Under the pieces are notes generated by a model. That model was not told the DNA's origin. It did not search any database and was given only the letters and a program-made list of their open reading frames with translations. A stretch of DNA of 64,000 bases, from positions 2,028,655 through 2,092,654 of the forward strand of contig NZ_ATTE01000001.1 of assembly GCF_000419525.1 (NCBI RefSeq), written 5' to 3'. The stretch is from Leucothrix mucor DSM 2157. Its GTDB lineage: Bacteria; Pseudomonadota; Gammaproteobacteria; Thiotrichales; Thiotrichaceae. Shown one piece after another: positions 16,463-44,804 of the stretch (the stretch's first letter is position 1; every line of letters starts with the position of its first letter). The translations under genes were made by a program, and so were the position numbers.

Positions 16463-17542
16463 ATGCTCTCTACACCCATAACGAGGCAAATACTCATGCG
16501 CGATGGCACGATAAAAAGACTCCTTGGCACCGAGCTTCCCATTATTCAAGCGCCCATGGCCGGCGTTCAGGATAGCGCCTTGACCATTGCCGTGAGTGAG
16601 GCCGGCGGCTTAGGCTCGCTACCGTGTGGATTGTTGAACATTGAAACTATTGTCAGCGAGCTTGCAACCATTAAACAAGCCACTGATAAGCCGTTTAATC
16701 TCAATTTTTTCTGCCATGAGATGCCCGCTTACGATGAGCAGAAACAAGCACGCTGGAAGGAAGCATTATCACCCTATTTTGATGAGCTGGGTATTGAGCT
16801 GAAAAGCAGCCCCAACAGCGCCACTCGCATGCCATTCAATCATGATATTGCCGATGCCATTGAGCCGTTTAAACCTGAATTCATTAGTTTTCACTTTGGT
16901 CTTCCCTCTCGCGAGTTAGTTGCCCGCTTAAAACAGTGGGGAACCAGAATTGTGTCTTCTGCGACTACGGTTGAAGAAGCCCTATGGCTTGAGTCCAGAG
17001 GGGCTGATGGCATTATCGCTCAAGGATTTGAAGCGGGAGGCCATCGAGGCATGTTTCTATCCGATGATATATCGACTCAGGTTGGGCTTGCCGCACTCGT
17101 GCCTCAGATTGCTAGCAAGGTAGGCGTACCGGTGATTGCCGCTGGCGGCATTGCTGATAATCGTGGCGTGGAAGCGGCTTTATTACTAGGTGCCAGTGCT
17201 GTTCAAATTGGTACCGGCTATTTGCTGTGTACCGAGGCTAAAACCTCCCAACTACACCGTACTGCGATACAAAGCGACCAATCCAGCCATACTGCACTAA
17301 CCACGGTATTCACTGGCAGGCCCGCCAGAAGCATTGTTAACCGTGCGATGAAAGAACTGGGGTATATGGACTCACCCGCACCGGCATTTCCTTATGCCTC
17401 GATTGAGATGGGGCAATTACGCGGGCCTGCGGAGAAACTGGGCTCAGCTGATTTCTCGCCACTCTGGTGCGGACAGAACACCTCCGGCTGCCAAGCGATT
17501 GCGGCAAGGGAGTTAACCTTATTGTTGGCGGGCAAGGACTAA
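16463..17542 (+). CDS. Nitronate monooxygenase (2-nitropropane dioxygenase family, FMN TIM barrel)
   Basis: 359 aa with NMO family motifs (PIIQAPMAG, GFEAGGHRG). The start may be the downstream Met (MRDGTIK). Confidence 0.75.
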   Translation: MLSTPITRQILMRDGTIKRLLGTELPIIQAPMAGVQDSALTIAVSEAGGLGSLPCGLLNIETIVSELATIKQATDKPFNLNFFCHEMPAYDEQKQARWKEALSPYFDELGIELKSSPNSATRMPFNHDIADAIEPFKPEFISFHFGLPSRELVARLKQWGTRIVSSATTVEEALWLESRGADGIIAQGFEAGGHRGMFLSDDISTQVGLAALVPQIASKVGVPVIAAGGIADNRGVEAALLLGASAVQIGTGYLLCTEAKTSQLHRTAIQSDQSSHTALTTVFTGRPARSIVNRAMKELGYMDSPAPAFPYASIEMGQLRGPAEKLGSADFSPLWCGQNTSGCQAIAARELTLLLAGKD

Positions 17543-17677
17543 CCTGAACAAGATAAGCCACCTACCAAATCACAATTAGAATACCTAATAAATCCCAGCT
17601 CGAATAGTGTGCTTGTATCCGCGCTGTTTGACATTTCACGCTACACTCAACGCTCCCAGAACCCACCGGAATGACAC

Positions 17678-18556
17678 ATGCCCTTTCACGGAGTACGACC
17701 TGAGCGACGCTATTTATTCCATCCATCACCAGTGAGTGATGTCGGCGTGAATGATGCGAATGTCTGGCGTCTGAATCCAGCGCATCGACACGTTTATAAC
17801 AAGCTGCATGTTGCGCTATCGCAAGGCCTGATTGCTGCACCGAGTGGCGTTAGCCCGATTGCCATGGGACTTGAACCGGAGCACGCTTGCTTTGTAAAAC
17901 CCATCACCAATTTAGGCGGTATGTCGCTCAATAGCTTCGCAACCACCGCTCAGGCATTGACTGATGCCACTATCAATGGCACTGAAAACACAGCTAGCAA
18001 CTCAGCGGCTGGCAGCTTTTGGTGTGAGTTTTTATCCGGTACGCAAACCAGTACCGACGTTTTAGTGCTAAACGGCGAACCACAGTGGTATGGGCACACA
18101 AAAGCCGCTGATCAACGTGATAAAAACCGCCCTATTTACTGGCTGATTGGCGCAGATTGTCAGGACTCAGAAGCGCATATCGAAACCTTTATTCGTCGCG
18201 AATTAGCGGACTATACCGGCTTGTGTAATGTCGAGATGATTGGTAGCCACATCATCGAAGTCCACCTGCGCGGGTCAAATGCCTTTTTTGACTATTACCC
18301 CGATGCCTTTATGCAGGCGTGGGTGAATCTGGTCGATCATCAAACATGGCAAGGCTTGGAGCCCATTAACCAAGGTTGTTTGTACTCCCTATTTGGCGAT
18401 TGGACGCTCCCTGACAATGCCGAGCAACTGGTTGAAGCATCCGGTGCGCGCCTGTATCGCGATGGAATGATGGCTGATCGGGTAGGAATCATTTTTGCGG
18501 ATTGTCCTGAAACTGCGCAGTCTATTGAGGCACAGTTAAAACAATCAAGTTGTTAG
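17678..18556 (+). CDS. Hypothetical protein, possibly ATP-grasp-like
   Basis: 292 aa with no confident motif. There is weak resemblance to the ATP-grasp fold (NVEMIGSHIIEVHLRG). Confidence 0.3.
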   Translation: MPFHGVRPERRYLFHPSPVSDVGVNDANVWRLNPAHRHVYNKLHVALSQGLIAAPSGVSPIAMGLEPEHACFVKPITNLGGMSLNSFATTAQALTDATINGTENTASNSAAGSFWCEFLSGTQTSTDVLVLNGEPQWYGHTKAADQRDKNRPIYWLIGADCQDSEAHIETFIRRELADYTGLCNVEMIGSHIIEVHLRGSNAFFDYYPDAFMQAWVNLVDHQTWQGLEPINQGCLYSLFGDWTLPDNAEQLVEASGARLYRDGMMADRVGIIFADCPETAQSIEAQLKQSSC

Positions 18557-18705
18557 ATGCATAACTAATCAGCTCGCTAAACAATGAATATTCCATGCTA
18601 AAAAAACGTTTACTTGTGATATTCATCTCTCTGTGGGCCAAGTACAAGCTTGCATGCAAATTAAGTTTATAATATAAGCATGGCTGACCCACAAAGGTTC
18701 CTACC

Positions 18706-19137
18706 ATGTCCAGTCTAATCCATACCATATACGCTAGCCGAGCCGTTAACGACTTTTCACAAGATGACATTGTCGATTTACTATCGAAAGCGAGAACGAA
18801 AAATGCATCGCTGGGTATAACGGGCATGCTGCTCTATGACGATGGCTCTTTCTTTCAGGTTTTGGAAGGAGAGGAAGCGGCGCTTGATCAGCTATTCAGT
18901 GAGATCTCCGACGACAAACGTCACCAGCAGGTCGCCAAAATCATTTCAGAAGCCATTCCAAAGCGACAATTTAGCGACTGGAGCATGGGCTATGCGGCGA
19001 TTTCAAGTGATGAGTTAAAAACCATCGAAGGCATGAATGACTTTTTCACTGAGCAAAACTGCCTTGCAGAAATAGATGCCGGACGGGCTAAAAAATTACT
19101 GAAAGCTTTCGCTCAGGGTCGCTGGAGACTGGACTAG
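18706..19137 (+). CDS. BLUF domain blue-light sensor protein
   Basis: 143 aa. BLUF signature YASRA...GITGMLLYDDGSFFQVLEG, with a conserved Tyr/Gln/Trp/Met set apparent. Confidence 0.8.
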   Translation: MSSLIHTIYASRAVNDFSQDDIVDLLSKARTKNASLGITGMLLYDDGSFFQVLEGEEAALDQLFSEISDDKRHQQVAKIISEAIPKRQFSDWSMGYAAISSDELKTIEGMNDFFTEQNCLAEIDAGRAKKLLKAFAQGRWRLD

Positions 19138-19139
19138 CA

Positions 19140-19868
19140 ATGTCCACGCCTGCCAGCCTAAGCAATATCGACTTTTCCCATGCATTTCAACCTATTGTAG
19201 ATATCGATGAAGGCAAGATTATCTCGTATGAGGTACTGGTAAGAGGCCCTAACCAAGAGTCTCCGGCAACTGTATTTAGCCAAGTGACTAAGCAACAATT
19301 CATGGACTTTGATCAGCTGATCAGGGAAAGAGGCATCGCACAAGCTGCCTCACTTGGACTTAGCTGCTGCTTGAGTCTCAACTTTACACCCGGCGAAATC
19401 CTATTCGCGCATGGCGCTTATGTTGAGCGCACTATTAGCGTTGCAGAACAACACAATATCCATGCACATCAGCTCATTATCGAAATCACCGAAAGTGAGG
19501 CAATACTGGATTTGCCACTGTTAGCAGAAATCATCAACAAGCTACGCCGCAGTGGTATAGCCATCTCTATTGATGACTTTGGATCGGGTTATGCAGGCTT
19601 AAGCCTGCTTGCAGATATTCAACCTGACCAGGTAAAAATCGATATACACCTGATCAAAAACGTTAATAAAAACGGCCCTCGGCAAACCATTGTAAAAGCC
19701 ATTAATAATATTTGTCTGGATCTTGGCATTGACGTGCTGGCAGAAGGCGTCGAAAGCCACGAGGAGTTTTTATTTTTAGAACGTGCGGGAATATCGCTGT
19801 ATCAAGGTTGGTTTATCGCACGACCAGCATTTGAATCCCTGCCACTAACGTTTGACTTAAAGCCTTAA
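19140..19868 (+). CDS. EAL domain c-di-GMP phosphodiesterase (stand-alone)
   Basis: 242 aa. EAL catalytic motifs are present (EVLVR, EITE, DDFGSGYAG, KIDIHLI, EGVE, QG). Its start is 2 nt after the BLUF stop. Confidence 0.8.
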   Translation: MSTPASLSNIDFSHAFQPIVDIDEGKIISYEVLVRGPNQESPATVFSQVTKQQFMDFDQLIRERGIAQAASLGLSCCLSLNFTPGEILFAHGAYVERTISVAEQHNIHAHQLIIEITESEAILDLPLLAEIINKLRRSGIAISIDDFGSGYAGLSLLADIQPDQVKIDIHLIKNVNKNGPRQTIVKAINNICLDLGIDVLAEGVESHEEFLFLERAGISLYQGWFIARPAFESLPLTFDLKP

Positions 19869-19923
19869 CAAACGCTTCCCACCTACTCCCCAACTCTTGC
19901 GACTATCGTTTGAATCACAGCGG

Positions 19924-20160
19924 CTATTTACATGTAAGCCATTCGACCAAGGTATCCATATCTTCTTCTACTTCATCATCGGTTTGAGTTATTACGGAAA
20001 TACCCAGGCGCGATACATGCGTTATAAAACCGGCAAGCGTCATTTTTGCCAAGCTTGCAGCGCATACTAGAGACAACTCACCATCCTTGAATAAGGTGGT
20101 TGCAAGGGCAATACGCACATCTGGGGTATCGAATGCTTTGATTTGATTAATAGTTATCAT
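19924..20160 (-). CDS. UPF0175-like small protein (putative orphan antitoxin-like)
   Basis: 78 aa, with a helical LAKMTLAGFITHVSRLGI pattern resembling UPF0175. No partner toxin gene is adjacent. Confidence 0.35.
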   Translation of the reverse strand: MITINQIKAFDTPDVRIALATTLFKDGELSLVCAASLAKMTLAGFITHVSRLGISVITQTDDEVEEDMDTLVEWLTCK

Positions 20161-20301
20161 TGCTAGACCTCAGGAAAAATCAGATAGGATTATCGTATGG
20201 TAAACTTCACAAAATAGCCATTAGGCAAGTTGATATAAGATGGCCCAGTTTCTGGCAGTCTCTGCTGTTAACCAATAGACTATAGCCACAACCTAAAACT
20301 A

Positions 20302-21135
20302 ATGGGAGGCAATACAATGACAAACGACAGCGTATTAAACAACGGACTTAAAATGCCTTGGCTAGGATTTGGCGTTTTCCAGATTGACGATGGCGGCTCG
20401 GTAGAAGGTGCCGTTCGCACAGCGCTAGACGTTGGCTATCGCAGCATTGATACCGCCGCCATTTACAAAAATGAAGCCGGCGTTGGGCAAGCAATTAAAG
20501 ACAGCGGCATTGCCCGCGAAGATATCTTTCTAACCACCAAGGTCTGGAATGATGCCCAGCGTGATAACAGCGTTGCGCAAGCCTTTGAAGATAGCTTGGA
20601 GCGCTTAGGAACCGACTATGTGGATTTGTACCTGGTACATTGGCCAGTGGCAAACTGCTATGAAGCGACATGGAAAGAGATGGAGAAGATTTACCAAAGT
20701 GGTCGCGCTAAAGCCATTGGCGTCAGTAACTTTCAGATCCATCATTTAAAAGACATTCTAGCGACGGCTGAAGTGGTTCCGGCCGTTAATCAGGTAGAGT
20801 TTCACCCACGACTACGCCAGCCAGAGCTGATGAAATTCTGTAAAGATAACAAGATCCAACTCGAAGCATGGAGCCCGCTCATGCAGGGGCATTTAGGTGA
20901 AGAGTCTGAGATTGTGGCGTTGGCAGAAAAGTACGGAAAGTCGCCTGCACAGATCATTTTACGTTGGGATATTCAGCATGAAGTGGTGACTATTCCAAAA
21001 TCAGCCACGCCAAGTCGCATTGCAGAAAATGCTCAGGTGTTTGATTTTGAATTGTCGCAGGATGATATGGCGGTATTGGATGCGCTAGATCAGGGAAAAC
21101 GTTTCGGACCTGACCCAGATACTTTTGACTTCTGA
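20302..21135 (+). CDS. Aldo/keto reductase (2,5-diketo-D-gluconate reductase-like)
   Basis: 277 aa with AKR motifs (IDTAAIY, LVHWP, IGVSNF). The start is probably the Met at MTNDSVL. Confidence 0.85.
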   Translation: MGGNTMTNDSVLNNGLKMPWLGFGVFQIDDGGSVEGAVRTALDVGYRSIDTAAIYKNEAGVGQAIKDSGIAREDIFLTTKVWNDAQRDNSVAQAFEDSLERLGTDYVDLYLVHWPVANCYEATWKEMEKIYQSGRAKAIGVSNFQIHHLKDILATAEVVPAVNQVEFHPRLRQPELMKFCKDNKIQLEAWSPLMQGHLGEESEIVALAEKYGKSPAQIILRWDIQHEVVTIPKSATPSRIAENAQVFDFELSQDDMAVLDALDQGKRFGPDPDTFDF

Positions 21136-21549: not shown

Positions 21550-24500
21550 CTAATTAACAACCGTCAGGTACGTTGGCCATTGACCACTGTTAACCATTAA
21601 AGCCGTATCAAATACTCTTTGCATCTTCTCTTCCTGAGCATCTGCAGTGGCCGAAAAGTTAAAAAGCTGCTGCTGTTTAGTCTGCACTTTAGGATTCCAG
21701 TACCCCATTCCTTGGTCAAATAACAATGTACTTTTTCTTCCAGATGCCCACTCAATTTCCATGCTCCTGCCATGTTGTAAGTCGTAAGTCTTATCGAACA
21801 ACTGAACAGTAGGAGTTATTCCGAAGGCACCGGAGAACAACATCTCTATGCAATTGGTCAGATCACTATCTCTTATCCAGTCGTGCTTTATTTCACGACT
21901 CGGATATGCCGCATTCACCTTAGGTCTTAAGGTTCTAATCTCGACACTCTCCAACTCATCACCACTTAGAAGCTCAATAAATCCACTCAATAAAACAGCT
22001 GACCACGGTGACTTAAGGTATCGATCAGAGTAAACAATTGAACGCACCTGATCAGTCTTCAATAAATCAGAAAACTCTTTTGCATAAGACTCAAATAGCT
22101 TGGAAATTCGATCACTTACGCTACTGACAGGGCCGTTTAGTTCCTCAGTAATCACCATGACCGATGTACCAGATGCAGGCTTAATCCATAGAGAAGTATC
22201 AACAGGGTTAACTGCGATAGGTTCTAACTCATTTGAAGTTGCCCAAGTATCTGTCTTAGAAGATTGGAGCCAAGTGTCACCGGGTATCAAAGGCTCAGGG
22301 TTGCTACAGAAAAGCGTATGACACCCCTCCTCAGAAAAGACCTGCAGAATCAAGTTGGCATCACTACTGTGTATTGCTTTATCAAGCTCTACTATACGCA
22401 CCCCAAGCTCAGAAATTCGAGACAGATCCCTTTGAATCTCAGCTTCGAAGGCACTTGCTGATTCGATACATAGCTCTACACTTACTTTATCAACCAACTG
22501 CCAACGTAATACCTGATCTCTAAACCCAGCAAAACCTAAGTCCCATTGACTAATGTCGTTACTGAGTAAAAGACGAATCGTGACTTCAGAAGATTTACTT
22601 TTTAACGTATTAATAGATCTTCTGATGTACTGGTTGGCACCTCTGGAGCAATATGTAGCACCGGGAATATCTTTAAGGGCGTCCGGTAAAGATAAGAATG
22701 ACAGATAATCACTTTCTTCTAGCCACTGCTTTGCAGCTTTTCTGTCTAACTCTTCTTGCTCAACTCTACTGTCTTGTGATGCTAAGCAGGCAGAACACAC
22801 ATTGTCACAATCAGCTATACAATTTAGCTTTTCCTTTACTGATCCGATGAGACCGACCAAATCATCAAGACCTGCTAATACAAAACCAGCTCCACCGCTA
22901 GCCTGATCGAACACCTGAATAACTGAGCGTTTAGAGCCCGTTTCAAGATCTCGATTTACTCTATAACTGAACCCCATTTCAGAACTAGAGATCCCCAAAC
23001 GATCGGCTAGTGCATCACGAAGTGCTACCGCTATAGTTGTAGCAACAACCTTATCTTCAGCAGAATCACTCAGCCACTGCCCAGTTTTTGGATTCTTTAA
23101 ATATAGCTCTAAAACATCTGTCGTGATTTGGTAGCCAAGGTATATATTTGGTTTGACTGCCTCACCGGAACAGCTTTGTTCCTTATCACTGCTAACGCTC
23201 CCTCCGCCTATGGGCTTATGCATTTCATCAGGTTGCAAGGCTTTAGGCACATTACCTTCATTCGTCATTGACTCTGCTCGTCCACAACTCATGCATACCG
23301 CATAGCCTTTTTCGTGCTCTCCAGATGAATTATAAAAAACGCGACCGTCATTCCCATATTGAACATGACCGCAGCGAGCATCAGGCAGCGAAATTGACTC
23401 ACCAATTAATTGAATAAGTGGCTTCTCTACGCGAATAAATTTTTGTGATGAAATGTCATTGCCCGGAGAGTCATAAAAATCAGTCTGGAAACCTGCTGGA
23501 CGTAAGACCTGCTTTTGGTTTTTCGAAGAAATTTCAGTATCACAACCATCGCAAGTCAGGTTTTCACTATTGCTGTAAGCATTTTCTTTTAAGCCACTAG
23601 CCCCACAATTAGTACAACGCCAAGCAATATCAAACTTCTGAGCTTCATTGATTGCGCCTCCTGCATGCCATTGTAAACTAACACCAACTGAGCGATACAC
23701 TTTCCCATCAATAACGACTTGCGCACCAGGGGCATACTCCCTAATTGCAACATCTAACCCCCGCGAAGGCAGCTCTTTCCACTTTCCAGTATTATCCTCC
23801 CGTCCTTCATTTTCTTTCTGTTTTTGTTTTTGAATAAAGTCATCCATATTATAGGTATTCAGCGTAACAACATCTGTTGGAAAACCATAAACTGGAAGGA
23901 ATGTACGAACAGAAAGGTCTCGTAAAAGGTATTCACCCCCGTGCCTCGTAAGCTCTAAGGATAATGCCCTTTTATAAGCATTCTCCTTAGCATTCCCAAT
24001 GAGGAGGTTTAACTTATCAAAATCAGTTTTCCATCTGGTTTGAATACCCCCAATCAGGTCAGATGCATCAACAAAAAGCTCCTCTAAAGAACGCCCTGAG
24101 ATACCGGTGCCTGCTGTTAACTTAGCGACTGCAGAAGCGACCTCTCCTGAGTGTGAGGCTGATTCCAGCCAGTCTCTAAACCTCTGACATGGAGAGTTTT
24201 CCCCGCTATAAAACCAGCTCACTGTAAGTTTTATATAATCATCACTAGGCTCAATAAAGGTTCGAAGAAAGTATGAGAGTAAATATGAATTCACATGTCT
24301 TAATACAATCTTATCCGAGCTTAACGTAATACTGGGTGCAGGAATTTTTGTGACAAATGGCCATACCGGGTCATTGAAAGCCCGTCTATTATGTGGGTCC
24401 GCTTTGCATAAAGTGTATGCAATAGCCCTAGACTCGCTTCTTCGCCCGGCACGACCCGCTCGCTGTAAATAGTTTGCCGGATGAGGTGGAACATTATTCA

Positions 24501-27500
24501 TTACAACAGCTGATATGCCGCCAATATCTACCCCCATCTCCATAGTCGTTGAGCAGTTCAGAACATTAATTTTTCCTCGCTTAAATAGCTCTTCATATTC
24601 CTCCAGACGCTCTGAGGTTTGCTGTGCGGAGTGTTCTGCTGTTCTATAGTAAAATCCCCCCTCAACTGTTCTATCGCTAAGATCTGTCCACAGACTCTCG
24701 CTCCTTAGCTCATCAACCTCCTGATCTTGACTAACAAGTTCTCGGATTTGAACTAACTTTGGTACAGCACTGCTATTAGGTCTAAATTTAGACAGGTCGG
24801 GCAACTTTACTTTCTTACATCGGTAGTCGACATCAGTAAGGATTTTTCGTGGTAGATAAGGTGTTAAACCTCTGAAAGTAGTATCAATCAGGCGATTTGT
24901 TTCACTACAGACCCAAGCTTCTCTAGGTAATGAAAAGGTAATTTTATCCAATAGCAGTTGATAACCCTTATCAGTTCTCACCAAAATATTTACATTATCG
25001 CTAGTCAGAGCCTCCCAAGCAGACTTTAACCATAAATTCAGCTTGTTTTGGTCTTCCCTATTTGTCATGTCAAGGTTGCAACCAGTAGCTAAGAGCTTGA
25101 TTAATCTAGATGCACTATTCCCCTTAGCCTGAGGCCACATCTTTATTGTATTGCTCTCATCTGTATTTGATTCTGGCGGAAACAAGGATTTTGGTGAAAA
25201 CTTTGAGCCCATCCAGAACCTGATGGTGTTCTCAAGTTTCAAATAAGTATTTTCACGAACAAAGAAGTCTAATGTCACTTTAAGAAAATCTTTCCAGTCA
25301 CTTAGGCTTAACCGTCCTTCTAAACTAACATCTCCTTGTATTGGAGATATCGCTCTCGTTTGCTCCCAGTACTGAGGAGCATGAGATACATTCGATAAAC
25401 CCTCATAATTAACCTTAATAATTCCCAATGTCTCGGTGCTGTTCTGGTTTTTAGGTCGTCGCGCATACTCTCTTGCCAATAAAAGGCGGGCAATGTATCG
25501 ACCAGTATTATCCTCTGACAGAATCTTCCGGTTAATTGATATATTGTAATCAAGAATATATTGACTAACATCGGTACAACCGGAAAGCTCGCTTACCATA
25601 TCTTGCCAGTTCATTTCTGCAGCTTCTGGTCGTGAATCACTATCAATTAGCGCCTCAGCCTGCTTTCTAAAAACTGCAGCACGATCAGACATTCCTTTTA
25701 ACTCAAAGGTTTCAGCAAATGTTATCAAATCATCATAAGAAAACTCCCCCATGGGGGAGTTTGTGATCTTTGAGTCAACATTTTTTTGATTCTCTGCCAA
25801 GATCTCAAATACCAATCCTCTTAACCTTGACCGCTCAGCTTCCTGCTGCATTCTTACCGCCATTCTTGCCGTGCCTTGGCGACTATCGGTAAAGGTAATA
25901 AGTTTGCGTCCACGCCCAGGAAGTTCTTCAGGTGACTTTCCAGCACAATCCTCTTTATCTGGATCTGGGCAATATTCTAAGACCGTAGGAACCGCATTCG
26001 CAGTGTAAAAAGGAGATCCTAAGTATAATTGACGATACCAAGAACCAAACTTGGAGGACTTTGCGTCACAGCGGCTACATATAGACTCTGAATGATTAAT
26101 ATGGGAAAAGCTGATTGAAGAGTTACTCTGATTAAGTACACCAAACTTAAGGCTCTCAGTATCCAATGAGCTTTTGCCATACGATTCATTTTTACAGTTA
26201 ATTCCCGCAATGACTTTTTTCGTATCATTTGGTTGAATATCTGGAGCTGAGTCTGAACTACCTTCAAAATCCTCACTATCTGATTCAGAATTTAGTGAAA
26301 ACTCATCCTCAACATAAGTGCTGATTTGCTGAAGCTCTCCTCCCTTATCTTCGGCAAGTAAATGAGGCTCCTTACATCCCTTACAAAACGTTAGTTCGTA
26401 AACAGGTGACCCACATGAACAACGTGACTTATGAGCAGTGTAAATATTTCCAAACGACCACTTTCCTAAACTCTCTGGTTTGGCTGTACATTTGGGGTCA
26501 ATGCAAGCCCACAGACCATGTAACATCTGCTGAAAAAGATGAATCCGAAGCTTAAGAAAAGGTGCTGACTCGATACTAGGCTTTGTGCCTGTCATTAAAT
26601 CTAACCACCCAAGAAGCTCCTGCTGCTTCTCTGTAAGAGATTGTCCCTCCAACCTATCACCGAACTCATTTACCAGTTCAGACAAATCAAGTGGACGATT
26701 TTGTTTCACAGCACCATTTAAACTACCCTTAAGAATGTATGTTCTCAGGTCGTGAGACAGCCTGTTATTAATTAAAGCCGTGAACCTACTTTCTGAAACT
26801 TCAGAGCCGAGCTCTATCTGTGATATTTCATCAAAGCTTAAGTTAGATAACTTTTCAGGAAGCGAGATTTCATCCCAAATTCTCCTTCCACCAATAACAA
26901 CAACTTGATTTGTAGAAACCCCTGCCAAGTCTGCTAAGTACTGTGTCAACTGTTCCTTAGCATCCTCACCTGCGATAGTTGCAGAAGTGGCGACAAAACG
27001 AATATCTTTCGCGTCTCTGCCAAATGCCTCAACAACCCTACGTAGCAGTAATGAGATCTCAGCAGCTTGGGACCCAACATAGGTATGTGCTTCATCCAGA
27101 ACAATCCAGCGCAGAGATTTGGCTTCTTTTGAAATACTAAGGATTGGGCTATCTACTTGCCTCACCAACATGTATTCCAGCATGGTAGCGTTTGTCATTA
27201 AAATGGGGGCTGGTTCTTTTCTTAATAGCTCGCGAGAAAGAATCTGATTAGGCTTTTTCTTTTGCTCTTTTCTAACACGGTCTGACCTCTCCTCTGTTTT
27301 ACCGTTGTATAAGCAAAAACGTAGGTCGCTACCATAGGATTTAGTCCAGGCATCGAGCCTTTCCTGCTGAGAATTGATCAGTGCATTCAAAGGATAAAGA
27401 AATAGTGCTCTCACTCCGACCAGAGCACCCTTTTGATTAGCTCTTTCCTGAATTAAATCCTCAAGTATGGGAATCATGAAACACTCGGTCTTACCTGACC

Positions 27501-27867
27501 CCGTTCCACTTGTAATGACTGCTGACTTAGGCTGCTTATCTAACAGTGTTTCCCAAGCCTGAATTTGATGCTTGTAAGGCTTTAGACTTCTTGGAAAATC
27601 ATAGGCATCAGCTTTCTCCAAATTATCAAGCAAGCTTCTTGATAAAAGCGTTCCTTCTAAACTTGCCAATGATATTGCTGACGGCTCCCAGCCAAAAGTG
27701 TGCTCAAAAACGGGGGCTGCCAGAAAGCACCCATCAGAACCCAGCTCATCATTCATCTGGCTTGCAAGGTGCTGCCTGAGCTCTGCATTATTGATACCTA
27801 AAATACTTAATGTAGCCTCTCTGGTGCGACTGAGGCTTTGGTTAATTAAGTCCTTGAAGAAGTACAT
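21550..27867 (-). CDS. Very large SF2 DEAD/DEAH helicase with DUF1998-like Cys4 zinc-ribbon domain and unknown C-terminal region. DruE-like; candidate Druantia type III helicase.
   Basis: 2105 aa. Q-motif PYKHQIQAW, Walker A TSGTGSGKTE, DEAH box VLDEAHTY, motif III TSAT, motif VI QRAGRAGRR. Cys clusters CTNCG...CDGC and CMSCG resemble DUF1998/MrfA-like. About 40% GC versus about 48% in the flanks. Confidence 0.65.
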   Translation of the reverse strand: MYFFKDLINQSLSRTREATLSILGINNAELRQHLASQMNDELGSDGCFLAAPVFEHTFGWEPSAISLASLEGTLLSRSLLDNLEKADAYDFPRSLKPYKHQIQAWETLLDKQPKSAVITSGTGSGKTECFMIPILEDLIQERANQKGALVGVRALFLYPLNALINSQQERLDAWTKSYGSDLRFCLYNGKTEERSDRVRKEQKKKPNQILSRELLRKEPAPILMTNATMLEYMLVRQVDSPILSISKEAKSLRWIVLDEAHTYVGSQAAEISLLLRRVVEAFGRDAKDIRFVATSATIAGEDAKEQLTQYLADLAGVSTNQVVVIGGRRIWDEISLPEKLSNLSFDEISQIELGSEVSESRFTALINNRLSHDLRTYILKGSLNGAVKQNRPLDLSELVNEFGDRLEGQSLTEKQQELLGWLDLMTGTKPSIESAPFLKLRIHLFQQMLHGLWACIDPKCTAKPESLGKWSFGNIYTAHKSRCSCGSPVYELTFCKGCKEPHLLAEDKGGELQQISTYVEDEFSLNSESDSEDFEGSSDSAPDIQPNDTKKVIAGINCKNESYGKSSLDTESLKFGVLNQSNSSISFSHINHSESICSRCDAKSSKFGSWYRQLYLGSPFYTANAVPTVLEYCPDPDKEDCAGKSPEELPGRGRKLITFTDSRQGTARMAVRMQQEAERSRLRGLVFEILAENQKNVDSKITNSPMGEFSYDDLITFAETFELKGMSDRAAVFRKQAEALIDSDSRPEAAEMNWQDMVSELSGCTDVSQYILDYNISINRKILSEDNTGRYIARLLLAREYARRPKNQNSTETLGIIKVNYEGLSNVSHAPQYWEQTRAISPIQGDVSLEGRLSLSDWKDFLKVTLDFFVRENTYLKLENTIRFWMGSKFSPKSLFPPESNTDESNTIKMWPQAKGNSASRLIKLLATGCNLDMTNREDQNKLNLWLKSAWEALTSDNVNILVRTDKGYQLLLDKITFSLPREAWVCSETNRLIDTTFRGLTPYLPRKILTDVDYRCKKVKLPDLSKFRPNSSAVPKLVQIRELVSQDQEVDELRSESLWTDLSDRTVEGGFYYRTAEHSAQQTSERLEEYEELFKRGKINVLNCSTTMEMGVDIGGISAVVMNNVPPHPANYLQRAGRAGRRSESRAIAYTLCKADPHNRRAFNDPVWPFVTKIPAPSITLSSDKIVLRHVNSYLLSYFLRTFIEPSDDYIKLTVSWFYSGENSPCQRFRDWLESASHSGEVASAVAKLTAGTGISGRSLEELFVDASDLIGGIQTRWKTDFDKLNLLIGNAKENAYKRALSLELTRHGGEYLLRDLSVRTFLPVYGFPTDVVTLNTYNMDDFIQKQKQKENEGREDNTGKWKELPSRGLDVAIREYAPGAQVVIDGKVYRSVGVSLQWHAGGAINEAQKFDIAWRCTNCGASGLKENAYSNSENLTCDGCDTEISSKNQKQVLRPAGFQTDFYDSPGNDISSQKFIRVEKPLIQLIGESISLPDARCGHVQYGNDGRVFYNSSGEHEKGYAVCMSCGRAESMTNEGNVPKALQPDEMHKPIGGGSVSSDKEQSCSGEAVKPNIYLGYQITTDVLELYLKNPKTGQWLSDSAEDKVVATTIAVALRDALADRLGISSSEMGFSYRVNRDLETGSKRSVIQVFDQASGGAGFVLAGLDDLVGLIGSVKEKLNCIADCDNVCSACLASQDSRVEQEELDRKAAKQWLEESDYLSFLSLPDALKDIPGATYCSRGANQYIRRSINTLKSKSSEVTIRLLLSNDISQWDLGFAGFRDQVLRWQLVDKVSVELCIESASAFEAEIQRDLSRISELGVRIVELDKAIHSSDANLILQVFSEEGCHTLFCSNPEPLIPGDTWLQSSKTDTWATSNELEPIAVNPVDTSLWIKPASGTSVMVITEELNGPVSSVSDRISKLFESYAKEFSDLLKTDQVRSIVYSDRYLKSPWSAVLLSGFIELLSGDELESVEIRTLRPKVNAAYPSREIKHDWIRDSDLTNCIEMLFSGAFGITPTVQLFDKTYDLQHGRSMEIEWASGRKSTLLFDQGMGYWNPKVQTKQQQLFNFSATADAQEEKMQRVFDTALMVNSGQWPTYLTVVN

Positions 27868-27873
27868 AAGCGA

Positions 27874-30800
27874 TTAATCCTTATCGTTTTTATTAAGTAA
27901 ATATGAGGTAACAAGTGCATGAGCTGGCCGATACCAAGAGGTCCTATCAAAGTCTGATATTTTTCTGACAAAGAACTTTAGCTCGGCCATCGTTGAGTTC
28001 ATTTTTAAGTCAGCAATACTAGATTTTCCTGAGGTTACATAAGCCATAAATATAGGCAGGTAAACCACTGAATCTTCATATTTTTCAAGAGGCAGTGCCT
28101 TAATTTTCTTTGAAAAATCTTGCTGTTCAACCCACGCTGAAAGTTCACCATTCAAATACTTTGGCCAAAGAGTGTTTTGATAGCTTTCATGAAGAGTGTC
28201 CCTCCACATAGGCAATATCAAGTCAGGTGGCAGACTTGTAAGCACCTCATTATTGCCACTGCTAAGGTAGTGTTCCACGCTCTCAAAGCCAGAAACGATG
28301 TTCGAAAGAACGGCTTTTCTGTTATCAACCATGTCATTAATAACAAATTCTGGAAGCCCCATTCCCCTCAGCCAACGATCATAATTTTTATAGGCTTGGC
28401 TCCAAATAGGTAAAGAAATACTTTCCCAGATTATCGACAACTCATCACGCATCCGGTCACTAAATAACTCATCAACCTCAAGGCGTAAAATCGATACTGC
28501 TAAGGTTAGTGGATTGCGTGAAAGTGAAAGCCAACTCTCAAAGGTAGACAGTGGTAGGTGATCAAATTTTCTTTTAATATCATCTAAATATTGCCACCCA
28601 CTGTGATCAAGATCACTTCCCATTTCGGCAATTTGGTCATCTATTACATGTGGATTATTCTGAGGGTGATAAAGCCGCGCAGCCTCATGTAAGGAGTGAA
28701 TTTTAGATCCGGAAGAATAGGTATTCGAAGCCGGTTGGCCGACTAGCAGATATGGCCTGAACTTGACTCTAGACTCTGCTTCTGGATAGAGCAACCAAGG
28801 CCCATCTCTATACATGGAGTCATCTGTGACAAATCGGCCAGTACCCACTCCCTGACTTGTTAGTTCACGCAATTCAATGGGGGTTTGCTTGGGATCAGAA
28901 AGGAGCATTGCGGAGACATTTACTCCACTAGCCACTCTACCAGTCGTGAAGTCAGATGCAGTGAAAACCTCTGTGCTATCTTTTGCGATAGACCCGTTAT
29001 ATCTTTTAATATTGACTGTCATTAAGCGACGCTGAGGGCTTTCAACCGTTAGCTTGACATAGGCATCCTGACTTTCCATCGCAGCCAATATCTGTCGTAA
29101 ATCATTTTGATACGCAAACAAATTAACAGAAAGCGGAACATCACCCGATTTGAACAACCGGTAATCAAGATAAACGTTAGTGCTGAAGTTCTTATCCTGC
29201 AACTCCATTCTCAGATGAAAGGACTGTGTTTCACCTACAGAAAATAGCAATATACTCAAGCCAATCAGATCTTCTGGGATCAAACTTTCGGACGTCAATA
29301 TATTGTTACTGGAGTCCAATAATCGCGCTCCCTCATAAGGAAAAGGTAAGCGTAGTATTACTGGCTCAAGAAATTCACCACCTTTAACACTTAATTGAAG
29401 ATTAGAGGGTGGTACTGCGTCTCGATAAGAAAGTGAAATAACCGATCGCCCCTCAATAATCTCTAAGCGGGAGCTGATATTTTCACCCATGACGCCAAAC
29501 TTACACTCACCTCCCCCCATAATTTCAAGGCGAGCTGGGCGAGTAGCATCACCGGCAAACAAACGGACTTTAAAGCTTTCAGGTAGTACACCGAATTTTC
29601 TCCTGAATAGAATTTCACCAGAGCTATTTTTAAGCGTGTAATTAAAGACCCCACCTATCTCACGCCGGCTTTTAGCAACTAACTCTCCATTAATATACTC
29701 ATAAACAGAACCTTCATTGCTCTTTTGGCACAGCTTTGGCCATCCCAGATAGACAGCGTTAGGGAGGGAATCAAAATCAAGCAGCTTTCCATCCAATGCA
29801 AACGTTTGAGTTACAGAAGGATGATTCAAACGAACTCTAAACTTATCACTTCCCAGAAAGATTGATGTCTCCTGGCTAAGCAAAACCCAGCGAACACCAT
29901 CAGTTTGTATATGCTTTATTTCTACACTTTCCGCTGGAGTAAAGTCAGCATTAGGTGGAAGCCGCACTAAAACTGCTGGTTGCCTCAAGGAACAACTCGC
30001 ATTTGCAAGCAGTTCCTGATCACCACTTACCTCAAAAATGACCGGTGCAGTTTCAAAGTCAATAGAGCTGGCATCAAACTGAGTTTGATAAATGGCAACA
30101 CCGTTATCCATCAAAGCCAAAGAAAGTGACTCACTACAGTCTCTTCTTTTTAACACTACTGGTGCTCTCGGTAGCCGTACTTTCAGCTCAGTACCATTTT
30201 GTACTTCACCATAGACAATGCTACCCCGAGCAATAAGCACACTGCCCTCATAGAATGCCATTTCAAGACGAGTACTGCTTAGAGCCGAAATATCAACCGG
30301 AAAGGTTACCGCAATAGGCGTAATGAGTTGTGCCTGTAAATCCCAGTGACCTTCAACTTGTCCAGCAATACTGTGCGTACACCTGAAATCATTCGGTGTC
30401 TTTTTAATGATTTCATTTTCTGCCTGACGCTTACTTGCATCACGCAACCAGTCCGTAATCAGGTTTTTAGCATTAGCTTCATTAAGTGGTAGAGGAAAAT
30501 CTTTTTTCCAGCGGGGCTCAGCTTTATCTAAAAATTCAACCGGATCTATTTCTTGCTTCAAGCTGGGATACTTTCCTGCGAGATGCATCAGCTGTTCAAT
30601 CACACCTGCAAGCAATTGTCGGGTTTCAAGGTTGTGAAAGGTATAAGGCAAGTCTTGCTCATAACTGGCAATCATGTCACTCGTCGTGCCTAAACTGGCT
30701 TTATTGCTATGGTAATTCTTCAAACCCTTTCTGATTACACGCCCAAAGCCGTGTGTTTCGCTTTTTATCAGCGGCCAAGGCAGCCCGCCCTCCAGAAATA

Positions 30801-31176
30801 ATGAGCCAATAAAATTCCGACCTTTTTCTGTACGACGTATTGGCCTTTTCCAAAAGCTTTCTAAGCCATAACTTATGAGTTCACTTCTTAGACCTTGCTT
30901 AAAATCACAACCTAATGACTTATCTGCCCACTCCCACGACCAGCTACCCTCTTCTGCTCCGTAGTCGCGCCGAAACCTTTCTGCTACAAATAAACAATAG
31001 AGCTCAGCCCAATGCTTACCTTTGATCGGGTCTGTAGCGAATCTAATATTGGCGATTAACTTATTTTTCAGGCTTTGAAATTCCTCAAATGTTACGTGAT
31101 AACTATACAAAGGCTTACCAGTTGGCCCAGCAAAACATTCACGAATAAAGAGAAACTCACTCAACCAAGCCTTCAT
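27874..31176 (-). CDS. Large protein of unknown function upstream of the helicase. DruH-like; candidate Druantia type III partner.
   Basis: 1100 aa with no recognisable motif. Its stop is 6 nt before the helicase start. Size and order (unknown ~1000-aa protein then DUF1998 helicase) match the type III Druantia architecture. Low GC. Confidence 0.45.
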   Translation of the reverse strand: MKAWLSEFLFIRECFAGPTGKPLYSYHVTFEEFQSLKNKLIANIRFATDPIKGKHWAELYCLFVAERFRRDYGAEEGSWSWEWADKSLGCDFKQGLRSELISYGLESFWKRPIRRTEKGRNFIGSLFLEGGLPWPLIKSETHGFGRVIRKGLKNYHSNKASLGTTSDMIASYEQDLPYTFHNLETRQLLAGVIEQLMHLAGKYPSLKQEIDPVEFLDKAEPRWKKDFPLPLNEANAKNLITDWLRDASKRQAENEIIKKTPNDFRCTHSIAGQVEGHWDLQAQLITPIAVTFPVDISALSSTRLEMAFYEGSVLIARGSIVYGEVQNGTELKVRLPRAPVVLKRRDCSESLSLALMDNGVAIYQTQFDASSIDFETAPVIFEVSGDQELLANASCSLRQPAVLVRLPPNADFTPAESVEIKHIQTDGVRWVLLSQETSIFLGSDKFRVRLNHPSVTQTFALDGKLLDFDSLPNAVYLGWPKLCQKSNEGSVYEYINGELVAKSRREIGGVFNYTLKNSSGEILFRRKFGVLPESFKVRLFAGDATRPARLEIMGGGECKFGVMGENISSRLEIIEGRSVISLSYRDAVPPSNLQLSVKGGEFLEPVILRLPFPYEGARLLDSSNNILTSESLIPEDLIGLSILLFSVGETQSFHLRMELQDKNFSTNVYLDYRLFKSGDVPLSVNLFAYQNDLRQILAAMESQDAYVKLTVESPQRRLMTVNIKRYNGSIAKDSTEVFTASDFTTGRVASGVNVSAMLLSDPKQTPIELRELTSQGVGTGRFVTDDSMYRDGPWLLYPEAESRVKFRPYLLVGQPASNTYSSGSKIHSLHEAARLYHPQNNPHVIDDQIAEMGSDLDHSGWQYLDDIKRKFDHLPLSTFESWLSLSRNPLTLAVSILRLEVDELFSDRMRDELSIIWESISLPIWSQAYKNYDRWLRGMGLPEFVINDMVDNRKAVLSNIVSGFESVEHYLSSGNNEVLTSLPPDLILPMWRDTLHESYQNTLWPKYLNGELSAWVEQQDFSKKIKALPLEKYEDSVVYLPIFMAYVTSGKSSIADLKMNSTMAELKFFVRKISDFDRTSWYRPAHALVTSYLLNKNDKD

Positions 31177-32860: not shown

Positions 32861-32935
32861 GTTTTGCTAGTTGGAATCGAACCAACAACCGATTGATGAT
32901 GAGTCAATTGCTCTACCGCTTGAGCTATAACAAAT
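32861..32935 (-). ncRNA. tRNA-like element with CAT anticodon-like loop. It could be a degenerate tRNA-Met/Ile2 or a YrlA-type Y-RNA tRNA-mimic module.
   Basis: The minus strand folds as a cloverleaf: acceptor TTTGTTA/TAGCAAA (one G-U pair), D-stem GCTC/GAGC, anticodon stem ATTGA/TCAAT with loop CTCATCA, T-arm GTTGG-TTCGATT-CCAAC. It is non-canonical: U at position 1, C at position 37 and no encoded CCA. It sits between a sigma-54 promoter and the SPFH gene. Confidence 0.5.

Positions 32936-44728: not shown

Positions 44729-44804
<76 letters not shown>

What the first reader, a model, noticed from the sequence alone, without database searches (positions are those of the whole stretch)
18706..19868. 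Split BLUF photoreceptor + EAL phosphodiesterase gene pair with 2-nt spacing
The BLUF sensor ORF stops at 19137 and an apparently catalytically intact EAL domain ORF starts at 19140. This looks like a BlrP1/YcgF-type light-regulated c-di-GMP phosphodiesterase split into two polypeptides, or a recent frameshift/stop of a fusion gene. A two-component light-gated phosphodiesterase would be unusual and useful, since the optogenetics-relevant BlrP1 is a fusion.
Basis: partly seen in the sequence, partly recalled or inferred. Interest (0 to 1): 0.5.

Follow-up and report, generated by a model that had tools for sequence, protein, structure and literature searches.

The report
Two-gene blue-light c-di-GMP phosphodiesterase operon
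This is an intact, conserved two-gene operon for a small blue-light sensor protein and a separate enzyme that degrades the bacterial signal c-di-GMP; it is not a broken fusion gene, and both the arrangement and its likely mode of action are already known from PapB/PapA of Rhodopseudomonas palustris, so it is ordinary.

Summary
A 143-aa BLUF gene (18706-19137) ends in TAG, and two bases later the ATG of a 242-aa EAL gene (19140-19868) begins, in another reading frame.

The split is not a sequencing error or a recent frameshift:
- Independent assemblies of relatives with 94, 88, 85 and 69% EAL identity show the same 143-aa BLUF, a stop, and a 2-nt (once 4-nt) spacer before the ATG.
- Both genes have dN/dS of about 0.1.
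- Among the 80 closest BLUF relatives in different species, 36 are split BLUF|EAL pairs, 15 of them with a 4-nt start/stop overlap. Another 24 are fused BLUF-EAL, and 17 have no adjacent EAL.
- The break falls exactly on the variable linker of the fused relatives.

All flavin-pocket residues (Y9 N33 Q51 W92 M94) are present. So are all EAL catalytic residues (E31 R35 N81 E115 D145 D146 K166 E202 Q222, equivalent to BlrP1 E188...Q379).

A short BLUF protein that activates a solo-EAL phosphodiesterase in blue light is already described: PapB-PapA of Rhodopseudomonas palustris. This pair most likely works the same way. That is inferred, not shown.

Verdict: new member of a known kind, low interest.

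The parts
18650..18659 (+). Perfect 10-bp palindrome TTGCATGCAA just upstream of the -10-like hexamer. It may be an operator or a -35-region element. Function unknown.
   Evidence: Read from the sequence. Identical in L081 and partly kept in L087 and L084. Not tested further.
18668..18673 (+). TATAAT, a putative -10 promoter hexamer for the BLUF-EAL operon (inferred).
   Evidence: It lies within TTAAGTTTATAATATAAGCA, the best-conserved block of the 149-nt upstream intergenic region in 5 relatives down to 69% protein identity. The consensus promoter scan did not call it, because no -35 lies at 16-18 nt.
18706..19137 (+). Gene for a short BLUF blue-light photoreceptor (143 aa). It has a BLUF core (residues 4-98) and a conserved C-terminal helical extension (109-141).
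   Evidence: Pfam BLUF 3e-32. Y9 N33 Q51 W92 M94 are invariant in 24 homologues and in 77 loci. The AF2 model has pLDDT 81, and its best structural matches are the short BLUF proteins PixD, TePixD, BlrB and BlsA at TM 0.79. dN/dS is about 0.12.
19124..19127 (+). GGAG, a Shine-Dalgarno-like sequence for the EAL gene. It sits inside the last codons of the BLUF gene (TGG AGA = W140 R141), 12 nt before the ATG.
   Evidence: Read from the sequence. TGGAGA is invariant in 7 aligned junctions. It also encodes the conserved W-R, so selection at the nucleotide level is not proven.
19135..19139 (+). The junction: TAG stop of the BLUF gene plus the 2-nt spacer CA.
   Evidence: The same stop and 2-nt spacer occur in L081, L082, L083, L084, L085 and L086; L087 has a 4-nt spacer.
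19140..19868 (+). Gene for a stand-alone EAL-domain c-di-GMP phosphodiesterase (242 aa), predicted to be catalytically active.
   Evidence: Pfam EAL 2.9e-52. The best solved relatives are VcEAL 6ifq (1.5e-53, 43% identity) and BlrP1 3gfx (1.1e-39, 35% identity). E31 L33 R35 N81 E115 E118 D145 D146 K166 D168 E202 E205 Q222 are invariant in 29 stand-alone homologues and match BlrP1 E188 L190 R192 N239 E272 E275 D302 D303 K323 D325 E359 E362 Q379. dN/dS is about 0.10.

Best explanation
The two genes form a co-transcribed, probably translationally coupled operon. It encodes a two-subunit, blue-light-regulated c-di-GMP phosphodiesterase of the PapB/PapA type.

Proposed mechanism:
1. The 143-aa BLUF protein binds flavin.
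2. Blue light rearranges the Tyr9-Gln51-flavin hydrogen-bond network and shifts strand beta5 (Trp92/Met94).
3. The change is passed through the C-terminal helices (residues about 109-141) to the dimer interface of the separately encoded EAL protein (the compound helix next to D145/D146 and K166).
4. Hydrolysis of c-di-GMP to pGpG rises, so cellular c-di-GMP falls in the light.

Shown here: both domains are intact, conserved and under purifying selection; the genes are tightly linked in many species; homologues are fused in many others. Inferred, not shown: the physical complex, the sign of the light effect (activation), the substrate, and co-transcription.
For: Domains and residues:
- BLUF 3e-32 and EAL 2.9e-52.
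- The photocycle residues Y9 N33 Q51 W92 M94 are invariant.
- The full EAL metal, base and substrate set maps one-to-one onto BlrP1. PMC3989770 names Asn239, Asp302, Asp303, Lys323, Asp325, Gln379 and Arg192 as functional in BlrP1.

Linkage:
- Of the 80 closest BLUF relatives from different species, 36 have a separate EAL gene immediately downstream on the same strand and 24 are fused to an EAL. That is 60 of the 77 loci that are not truncated.
- In the split loci the EAL start overlaps the BLUF stop by 4 nt in 15 of 36. The gap never exceeds 46 nt.
- The fused homologues are collinear with the concatenated window proteins. The break lies at the start of their variable 20-55-residue linker. 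This is classic gene-fusion ('Rosetta stone') evidence that the separate proteins interact.

The split is stable:
- The junction is the same in independent assemblies at 94, 88, 85 and 69% identity.
- dN/dS is 0.10-0.12 for both genes.
- The window's clade is split-only.

Precedent:
- PapB (short BLUF) forms a heterotetramer with PapA (solo EAL), and blue light stimulates the phosphodiesterase. Signalling goes through the PapB C-terminal helices (review PMC8846402, citing Kanazawa 2010, Ren 2012 and Nakasone 2019).
- In BlrP1 the BLUF capping helices contact the EAL dimerisation and compound helices (PMC3989770).
Against:
- The conserved C-terminal motif (GxNDFF...GRAKKLLxAFxxGRWR) is equally conserved in 16 orphan BLUF genes with no adjacent EAL. 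It is therefore not specific evidence for EAL docking.
- A profile of that motif does not align to the C-terminal helices of BlrP1 or of any solved BLUF.
- The sequences of R. palustris PapB and PapA could not be retrieved, so orthology to the characterised pair is untested.
- No promoter or terminator was called by the consensus scan.
- The SD-like GGAG sits 12 nt from the ATG, which is longer than optimal.
Confidence: 0.8

Rival explanations
1. The pair is a recently broken fusion gene: a BlrP1-type BLUF-EAL gene inactivated by a frameshift or nonsense mutation, or an assembly or sequencing error at 19130-19145.
For: Fused BLUF-EAL homologues exist in 24 of the 80 related species. The two ORFs lie only 2 nt apart in different frames.
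Against: - The identical junction appears in at least 7 independently assembled contigs from different sequencing runs, at 94, 88, 85 and 69% protein identity.
- All four closest named genera are split, with a BLUF of exactly 143 aa.
- dN/dS is about 0.1 for both ORFs even at dS of about 2.
- The window lacks the 20-55-residue linker that fused relatives carry. One indel could therefore not restore a normal fusion.
- The EAL has its own ATG and an upstream GGAG.
Confidence: 0.02
2. A fusion protein is made after all, by programmed ribosomal frameshifting near the end of the BLUF gene. A candidate site is the A-rich run GCT AAA AAA TTA at 19087-19098, because the EAL frame is open from 19041.
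For: The EAL reading frame is open for 99 nt upstream of its ATG, and an A6 run lies within that stretch (read from the sequence).
Against: - The frame relation between the two genes is not conserved: +2 in the window, +1 in L087 (4-nt spacer), and 4-nt, 1-nt or 16-nt overlaps or gaps up to 46 nt in other species.
- A shift at the A-run would replace the most conserved C-terminal residues of the BLUF protein (L132 A134 F135 G138 W140) with out-of-frame sequence.
- The run simply encodes the conserved K129 K130.
Confidence: 0.02
3. The two proteins are co-expressed but do not form a light-gated enzyme. The BLUF protein would signal to another partner, as PixD, BlsA or the YcgF-type anti-repressors do, while the EAL acts as a constitutive or otherwise regulated phosphodiesterase, or as a c-di-GMP receptor.
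For: - 17 of 80 related BLUF genes have no adjacent EAL, yet keep the same C-terminal motif.
- The closest solved and curated relatives of the EAL are solo EALs that work without BLUF: VcEAL and RimA, at 228 bits, below the 430-bit cutoff.
- By fold, the BLUF protein resembles PixD, BlrB and BlsA, which use other partners.
Against: - Linkage or fusion to an EAL is found in 60 of 77 informative loci across many phyla, with start/stop overlaps.
- Repeated independent fusions with the same domain order are hard to explain without a direct functional coupling.
- The catalytic residues are intact, unlike the degenerate EAL of YcgF (PMC4844311).
Confidence: 0.13

Closest known systems
PapB-PapA of Rhodopseudomonas palustris (short BLUF protein plus solo-EAL phosphodiesterase; Kanazawa et al. 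2010, Ren et al. 2012 and Nakasone et al. 2019, as summarised in PMC8846402)
   Same: The architecture is the same: a short BLUF-only protein with C-terminal helices and a separate protein that consists of one EAL domain. The expected logic is also the same, with blue light raising phosphodiesterase activity through a heteromeric complex.
   Different: The organisms differ: this one is probably a marine gammaproteobacterium, whereas R. palustris is an alphaproteobacterium. Sequence relatedness to PapB and PapA could not be measured here. Complex formation and light activation are untested for this pair. My recollection that papA and papB are adjacent could not be checked in the papers that were available.
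BlrP1 of Klebsiella pneumoniae (fused BLUF-EAL light-activated c-di-GMP phosphodiesterase; PDB 3gfx and related entries)
   Same: The EAL is 35% identical over 225 columns, and every catalytic, metal and substrate residue is conserved. The BLUF core aligns at 2.6e-15. The domain order is the same.
   Different: BlrP1 is one polypeptide, whereas this is two genes without the linker. The conserved C-terminal motif of this BLUF subfamily does not align with the BlrP1 capping helices at the sequence level. The EAL is closer to solo EALs (VcEAL 1.5e-53) than to BlrP1 (1.1e-39).
Fused BLUF-EAL proteins of the same BLUF subfamily (24 loci, for example L030, L053, L071; 394-434 aa). The described BldP proteins may belong to the same broad group, but this was not tested.
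   Same: They share the BLUF C-terminal signature GRAKKLLxAFxxGRWR. Their EAL domains are up to 46% identical to the window EAL. They are collinear with the concatenated window proteins.
   Different: They carry a 20-55-residue variable linker in a single ORF. Sixteen of them are followed by an extra stand-alone EAL gene.
VcEAL of Vibrio cholerae (PDB 6ifq; stand-alone EAL degrading c-di-GMP and cGAMP) and RimA (NCBIfam NF052265)
   Same: These are the closest characterised or curated relatives of the EAL protein: 43% identity and E 1.5e-53 for VcEAL, and 228 bits for RimA. All are single-domain EAL proteins of about 240-260 aa.
   Different: Neither is known to be partnered with a BLUF protein. 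The RimA score is far below the 430-bit equivalog cutoff, so the window protein is not RimA.
YcgF/BluF of Escherichia coli (BLUF plus degenerate EAL, an anti-repressor)
   Same: It also combines BLUF and EAL domains.
   Different: YcgF is fused, and its EAL is degenerate and enzymatically inactive (PMC4844311). Here the EAL motifs are all intact and the proteins are separate.

Membership tests
BLUF photoreceptors (Pfam PF04940) | BLUF fold with the flavin-pocket and photocycle residues Tyr (beta1), Asn, Gln (beta3) and Trp/Met (beta5) | tested here: met
   Pfam 3e-32 over profile positions 1-92 of 92. Y9 N33 Q51 W92 M94 are invariant. The AF2 model gives a beta-alpha-beta-beta-alpha-beta-beta topology and TM 0.79 to PixD and BlrB.
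BLUF photoreceptors (Pfam PF04940) | Binds flavin and shows a light-induced red shift of about 10 nm | not testable with these tools
   Needs purified protein and UV-visible spectroscopy.
Catalytically active EAL c-di-GMP phosphodiesterases | Complete set of conserved residues: EAL/EVL Glu, Arg, Asn, ExxE, DD, Lys, Glu and Gln, plus an intact loop 6 and compound helix (DDFGxGYxxL) | tested here: met
   E31 V32 L33 R35 N81 E115 E118 D145 D146 K166 D168 E202 E205 Q222 are aligned one-to-one with BlrP1 E188...Q379. They are invariant in 29 homologues. The loop reads DDFGSGYAGLSLL.
Catalytically active EAL c-di-GMP phosphodiesterases | Measured hydrolysis of c-di-GMP to pGpG | not testable with these tools
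   Needs an enzyme assay.
PapB/PapA-type two-protein light-regulated phosphodiesterase | A short BLUF-only protein with C-terminal helices and a separate solo-EAL protein | tested here: met
   The BLUF protein is 143 aa with only a BLUF domain and C-terminal helices at 101-104, 111-115 and 125-136. The EAL protein is 242 aa with only an EAL domain. The two genes are separate and lie in different frames.
PapB/PapA-type two-protein light-regulated phosphodiesterase | Functional coupling of the two proteins (here assessed from conserved linkage or fusion) | tested here: met
   There are 36 split-adjacent and 24 fused loci among the 80 related species loci. The start/stop overlap is 4 nt in 15 of the 36 split loci.
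PapB/PapA-type two-protein light-regulated phosphodiesterase | A physical BLUF-EAL complex and blue-light stimulation of phosphodiesterase activity | not testable with these tools
   Described for PapB-PapA (PMC8846402). Not testable here. Modelling of a multimer was not available.
PapB/PapA-type two-protein light-regulated phosphodiesterase | Sequence orthology to R. palustris PapB and PapA | not tested
   The PapB and PapA sequences could not be obtained.
BlrP1-type fused BLUF-EAL phosphodiesterase | BLUF and EAL on one polypeptide joined by a linker | tested here: not met
   A stop codon, a 2-nt spacer and a frame change separate the genes. This is conserved in relatives. The linker is absent.
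YcgF/BluF-type anti-repressor | A degenerate, inactive EAL domain fused to BLUF | tested here: not met
   The EAL motifs are intact and the proteins are separate.
RimA (NCBIfam NF052265 equivalog) | Score at or above the curated cutoff of 430 bits | tested here: not met
   227.8 bits.

The most novel reading that the evidence does not exclude
The free BLUF subunit may be a diffusible light-sensing module that serves more than one target. Three observations leave this open:
- The same conserved C-terminal motif occurs in orphan BLUF genes.
- It also occurs in BLUF-EAL fusions that are followed by an extra solo EAL.
- The EAL's closest characterised relative, VcEAL, also degrades cGAMP.

The split system could therefore gate several phosphodiesterases, or a second cyclic dinucleotide, by light. 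With tunable subunit stoichiometry, it could offer a naturally modular optogenetic part.
Probability: 0.08. Interest if true: 0.5.

Novelty: new member of a known kind. Interest (0 to 1): 0.15.

Why it matters
The value is mainly for annotation. The two ORFs should be annotated as a functional BLUF-sensor and EAL-phosphodiesterase operon, not as a pseudogene or a frameshifted fusion.

The small census made here may help people who engineer light-controlled c-di-GMP tools. In this BLUF subfamily, split pairs (36) are more common than fusions (24) among 80 species, most are translationally coupled, and the break point lies exactly at the linker. This shows where nature cuts and joins the two modules.

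It does not open a new question, because the two-protein principle has been known since PapB-PapA (2010).

Tried and rejected
1. Codon test for a selected Shine-Dalgarno sequence (AGA/AGG at R141 in split versus fused loci). AGA is enriched only in the window's own AT-richer clade, so the test was dropped as general evidence.
2. Consensus promoter and terminator scan of 17500-20400. Counts were at or below the shuffled expectation, and nothing was called in the intergenic region.
3. Rfam scan of the whole window. It found only two tRNAs, with no c-di-GMP riboswitch or other RNA near the pair.
4. tblastn of the BLUF protein against plasmids. The best hits were below 45% identity, so there is no close annotated or mobile copy.
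5. Retrieval of the PapB and PapA sequences or the original paper. It was not possible, so a direct comparison was not made. The third large protein search was not spent on it, because the chance of R. palustris appearing among the 120 listed hits was judged low.
6. Neighbours of 10 BLUF-only loci. They are unrelated enzymes, with no shared alternative partner.
7. C-terminal motif as an EAL-docking signature. It is equally conserved in orphan BLUFs, so it was rejected as specific evidence.
8. The upstream 292-aa ORF as a third component. It has no family match and is syntenic only in close relatives, so it is not part of the system.
9. NCBIfam RimA match. It is below the cutoff, so the protein is not RimA.

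Full report
**1. The observation**

The + strand carries an ORF at 18706-19137 (143 aa) and an ORF at 19140-19868 (242 aa). The junction reads CTG GAC TAG CA ATG: stop at 19135-19137, a two-base spacer, and ATG at 19140.

The second ORF is in a different frame (offset +2). ATG 19140 is the first canonical start codon after the upstream stop of that frame (19038-19040).

Pfam assigns the first protein to BLUF (3e-32, whole profile) and the second to EAL (2.9e-52).

**2. Are both proteins intact?**

BLUF protein:
- In an alignment of 24 homologues the photocycle residues Y9, N33, Q51, W92 and M94 are invariant. They stay invariant in 77 loci.
- An AlphaFold model (pLDDT 81) has the BLUF beta-alpha-beta-beta-alpha-beta-beta core followed by short helices at 101-104, 111-115 and 125-136.
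- Its best structural matches are the full-length short BLUF proteins PixD/Slr1694, TePixD, BlrB and BlsA (TM 0.79).

EAL protein:
- phmmer finds the stand-alone EAL VcEAL (6ifq) at 1.5e-53 (43% identity) and BlrP1 (3gfx) at 1.1e-39 (35% identity).
- Allowing for the 8-residue tag of the 3gfx chain, E31 L33 R35 N81 E115 E118 D145 D146 K166 D168 E202 E205 Q222 align one-to-one with BlrP1 E188 L190 R192 N239 E272 E275 D302 D303 K323 D325 E359 E362 Q379.
- All of these residues are invariant in 29 stand-alone homologues.
- PMC3989770 names Asn239, Asp302/303, Lys323, Asp325, Gln379 and Arg192 as the metal, water-activating and substrate residues of BlrP1.
- The loop 6 and compound-helix sequence DDFGSGYAGLSLL is intact.
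- The EAL is therefore predicted to be active. That is a prediction from sequence, not a measurement.

**3. Error, recent break, or stable arrangement?**

Exact-sequence look-ups of the closest EAL homologues returned independently assembled contigs from different sequencing runs:
- L081, L082 and L083 (94% identity)
- L087 (88%)
- L084 and L085 (85%)
- L086 (69%)

Every one has a 143-aa BLUF gene, a stop, a 2-nt spacer (4 nt in L087) and the EAL ATG.

Nei-Gojobori estimates against L081, L087 and L086 give dN/dS of 0.10-0.12 for both genes, except BLUF against L081, which has no nonsynonymous difference. This holds even where dS is about 2.

A sequencing error or a recent inactivating mutation is thus excluded.

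A programmed frameshift that would recreate a fusion is also unlikely:
- The frame relation between the genes varies: +2 in the window, +1 in L087, and overlaps or gaps elsewhere.
- Any shift upstream of the stop would destroy the most conserved C-terminal residues of the BLUF protein.

**4. How common is the arrangement?**

A scan of one genome per species with the BLUF alignment gave 548 confirmed relatives. The best 80 (50-65% identity) were kept. Classifying them by tblastn and ORF tracing gave:

| Class | Loci |
|---|---|
| Separate EAL gene immediately downstream, same strand | 36 |
| Single fused BLUF-EAL ORF of 394-434 aa | 24 (16 followed by a second, stand-alone EAL gene) |
| No EAL nearby | 17 |
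| Truncated contigs | 3 |

In the 36 split loci the EAL start overlaps the BLUF stop by 4 nt (ATGA/GTGA) in 15, by 1 nt in 2 and by 16 nt in 2. Otherwise the gap is 1-46 nt. This is the usual signature of operonic, translationally coupled genes.

The large protein searches agree. The 120 best EAL hits are all 231-273 aa (plus one 152-aa fragment) with only PF00563. The 120 best BLUF hits are all 137-219 aa and carry no EAL domain. Many pairs come from the same contigs, including Psychromonas ingrahamii, Colwellia, Leucothrix sargassi and Marinobacterium profundum.

**5. Relation to fused proteins**

I aligned the concatenated window proteins with the 24 fused relatives:
- The window BLUF ends two residues after the conserved GRWR motif.
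- That is exactly where the fused proteins begin a poorly conserved linker of about 20-55 residues.
- The window EAL begins about 12 residues before the conserved (F/Y)(S/T)FAFQPI strand that opens the EAL domain.
- The split therefore corresponds to a clean excision of the linker.

On a neighbour-joining tree of the EAL domains:
- The window groups with L081, L087, L084, L086, Psychromonas (L001), Colwellia (L003), Marinobacterium (L002) and L023 in a clade that is split-only.
- Fused and split forms are interleaved elsewhere; for example, fused L054 sits inside a split clade.
- Fusion or fission has thus happened several times.
- The tree is midpoint-rooted and rough, so the direction of these changes is not resolved.

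**6. Mechanism**

Published precedents:
- The c-di-GMP sensory review PMC8846402 describes BlrP1. Its BLUF C-terminal helices push on the EAL dimer interface of the partner protomer and raise activity about 4-fold in blue light.
- The same review describes PapB of R. palustris as a short BLUF-only protein. It forms a heterotetramer with the solo-EAL protein PapA and passes the light signal through its C-terminal helices.
- PMC3989770 shows that the BlrP1 capping helices and beta4 contact the EAL dimerisation and compound helices. These connect directly to Asp302/303 and Lys323.

The window pair has every element this mechanism needs, and its homologues are fused in other genomes. The best explanation is therefore a PapB/PapA-like two-subunit enzyme that lowers c-di-GMP in blue light.

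Steps that are inferred rather than shown: complex formation, the sign of the response, the substrate, and co-transcription.

Two caveats:
- The conserved C-terminal segment (109-141; G109 N111 D112 F113 F114 ... G126 R127 K130 L131 L132 A134 F135 G138 W140 R141) is more conserved than the BLUF core. It is equally conserved in split, fused and orphan loci, so it marks the subfamily rather than proving EAL docking.
- A profile of this segment does not align to BlrP1 or to any solved BLUF beyond residue about 108.

**7. Expression signals**

- The 149-nt region upstream of the BLUF gene contains a block, TTAAGTTTATAATATAAGCA, that stays conserved down to the 69% relative while its surroundings diverge.
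- This block includes TATAAT at 18668-18673.
- A perfect palindrome, TTGCATGCAA, lies at 18650-18659.
- The consensus scan called no promoter or terminator there.
- A GGAG lies 12 nt before the EAL ATG, inside the codons for W140-R141.
- These readings are plausible but unverified.

**8. Context**

- The pair sits between a nitronate monooxygenase gene plus a 292-aa ORF without family matches (upstream) and an aldo/keto reductase gene (downstream). This order is shared with L081 and L082.
- The 292-aa ORF is not linked to the pair outside close relatives.
- G+C of the pair (45%) is close to that of the window (48%).
- The nearest named homologues are marine gammaproteobacteria at 55-66% identity, so the organism is probably an unnamed marine gammaproteobacterium. 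This was not pursued further.

**9. Comparison, novelty and score**

In function and architecture the pair matches PapB/PapA. It fails the defining feature of BlrP1 (one polypeptide) and of YcgF (degenerate EAL). It is not RimA (228 bits against a cutoff of 430).

Orthology to the characterised PapB and PapA could not be tested because their sequences were not retrievable.

The homologue in Psychromonas ingrahamii was already catalogued in 2014 as a 'Short-BLUF'. The system is a new member of a known kind.

Interest is low (0.15).

The only mildly novel residue is the possibility that the free BLUF subunit serves several targets or substrates. I rate that possibility at about 8%.

Noticed in passing
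window 21550-31176 (- strand): The two large genes are a Druantia type III anti-phage pair. DruE is 21550-27867 (2105 aa; PADLOC PDLC00037, 2412 bits, full length; Pfam DEAD, Helicase_C and MrfA Zn-binding domains). DruH is 27874-31176 (1100 aa; PDLC00050, 1208 bits). The close relative L081 runs from the aldo/keto reductase through a 66-aa ORF straight to the Band_7 gene. The roughly 10-kb block is therefore a strain-variable insertion.
   Followed up: partly
window 19924-20160 (- strand): A 78-aa UPF0175-family ORF (Pfam 8e-11; PADLOC PDC-S70 1.8e-9), antitoxin-like, lies convergent to the EAL gene. It is absent from L081, where the gap between the EAL and the aldo/keto reductase is 159 nt instead of 434 nt. 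No partner toxin gene was looked for.
   Followed up: partly
loci L006-L009, L015-L017, L021, L028, L034, L040, L043, L050, L062, L069, L077: Sixteen of the 24 fused BLUF-EAL genes are followed directly by a second, stand-alone EAL gene. That second EAL is closer to the window EAL (about 38-49% identity) than the fused EAL domain is (about 29-40%), and it forms its own clade. This suggests a three-domain module in which a fused protein may pair with a solo EAL.
   Followed up: partly
window 17678-18556 (+): A 292-aa ORF directly upstream of the BLUF gene has no Pfam or NCBIfam match. It is conserved at 95% in L081 and L082 and partly present in L087, but is not linked to BLUF-EAL pairs in other genera.
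   Followed up: partly
window 18650-18659 (+): A perfect 10-bp palindrome, TTGCATGCAA, lies 8 nt upstream of the conserved TATAAT. It is conserved in the closest relatives and could be an operator for an unknown regulator of the operon.
   Followed up: no
BLUF residues 109-141 (window 19030-19128) and loci L001-L080: The C-terminal motif GxNDFF...GRAKKLLxAFxxGRWR is more conserved than the flavin-binding core in split, fused and orphan BLUF genes alike. It has no sequence counterpart in any solved BLUF structure, including BlrP1.
   Followed up: partly
locus L011 (Methylobacter psychrophilus), 1363-1785: The BLUF homologue there has an in-frame stop at 1680, inside the region of homology. No EAL lies downstream, so it may be a pseudogene.
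   Followed up: no
window 32862-32934 (-) and 44729-44801 (+): Two tRNA genes are the only Rfam matches in the whole window. No riboswitch was found.
   Followed up: no
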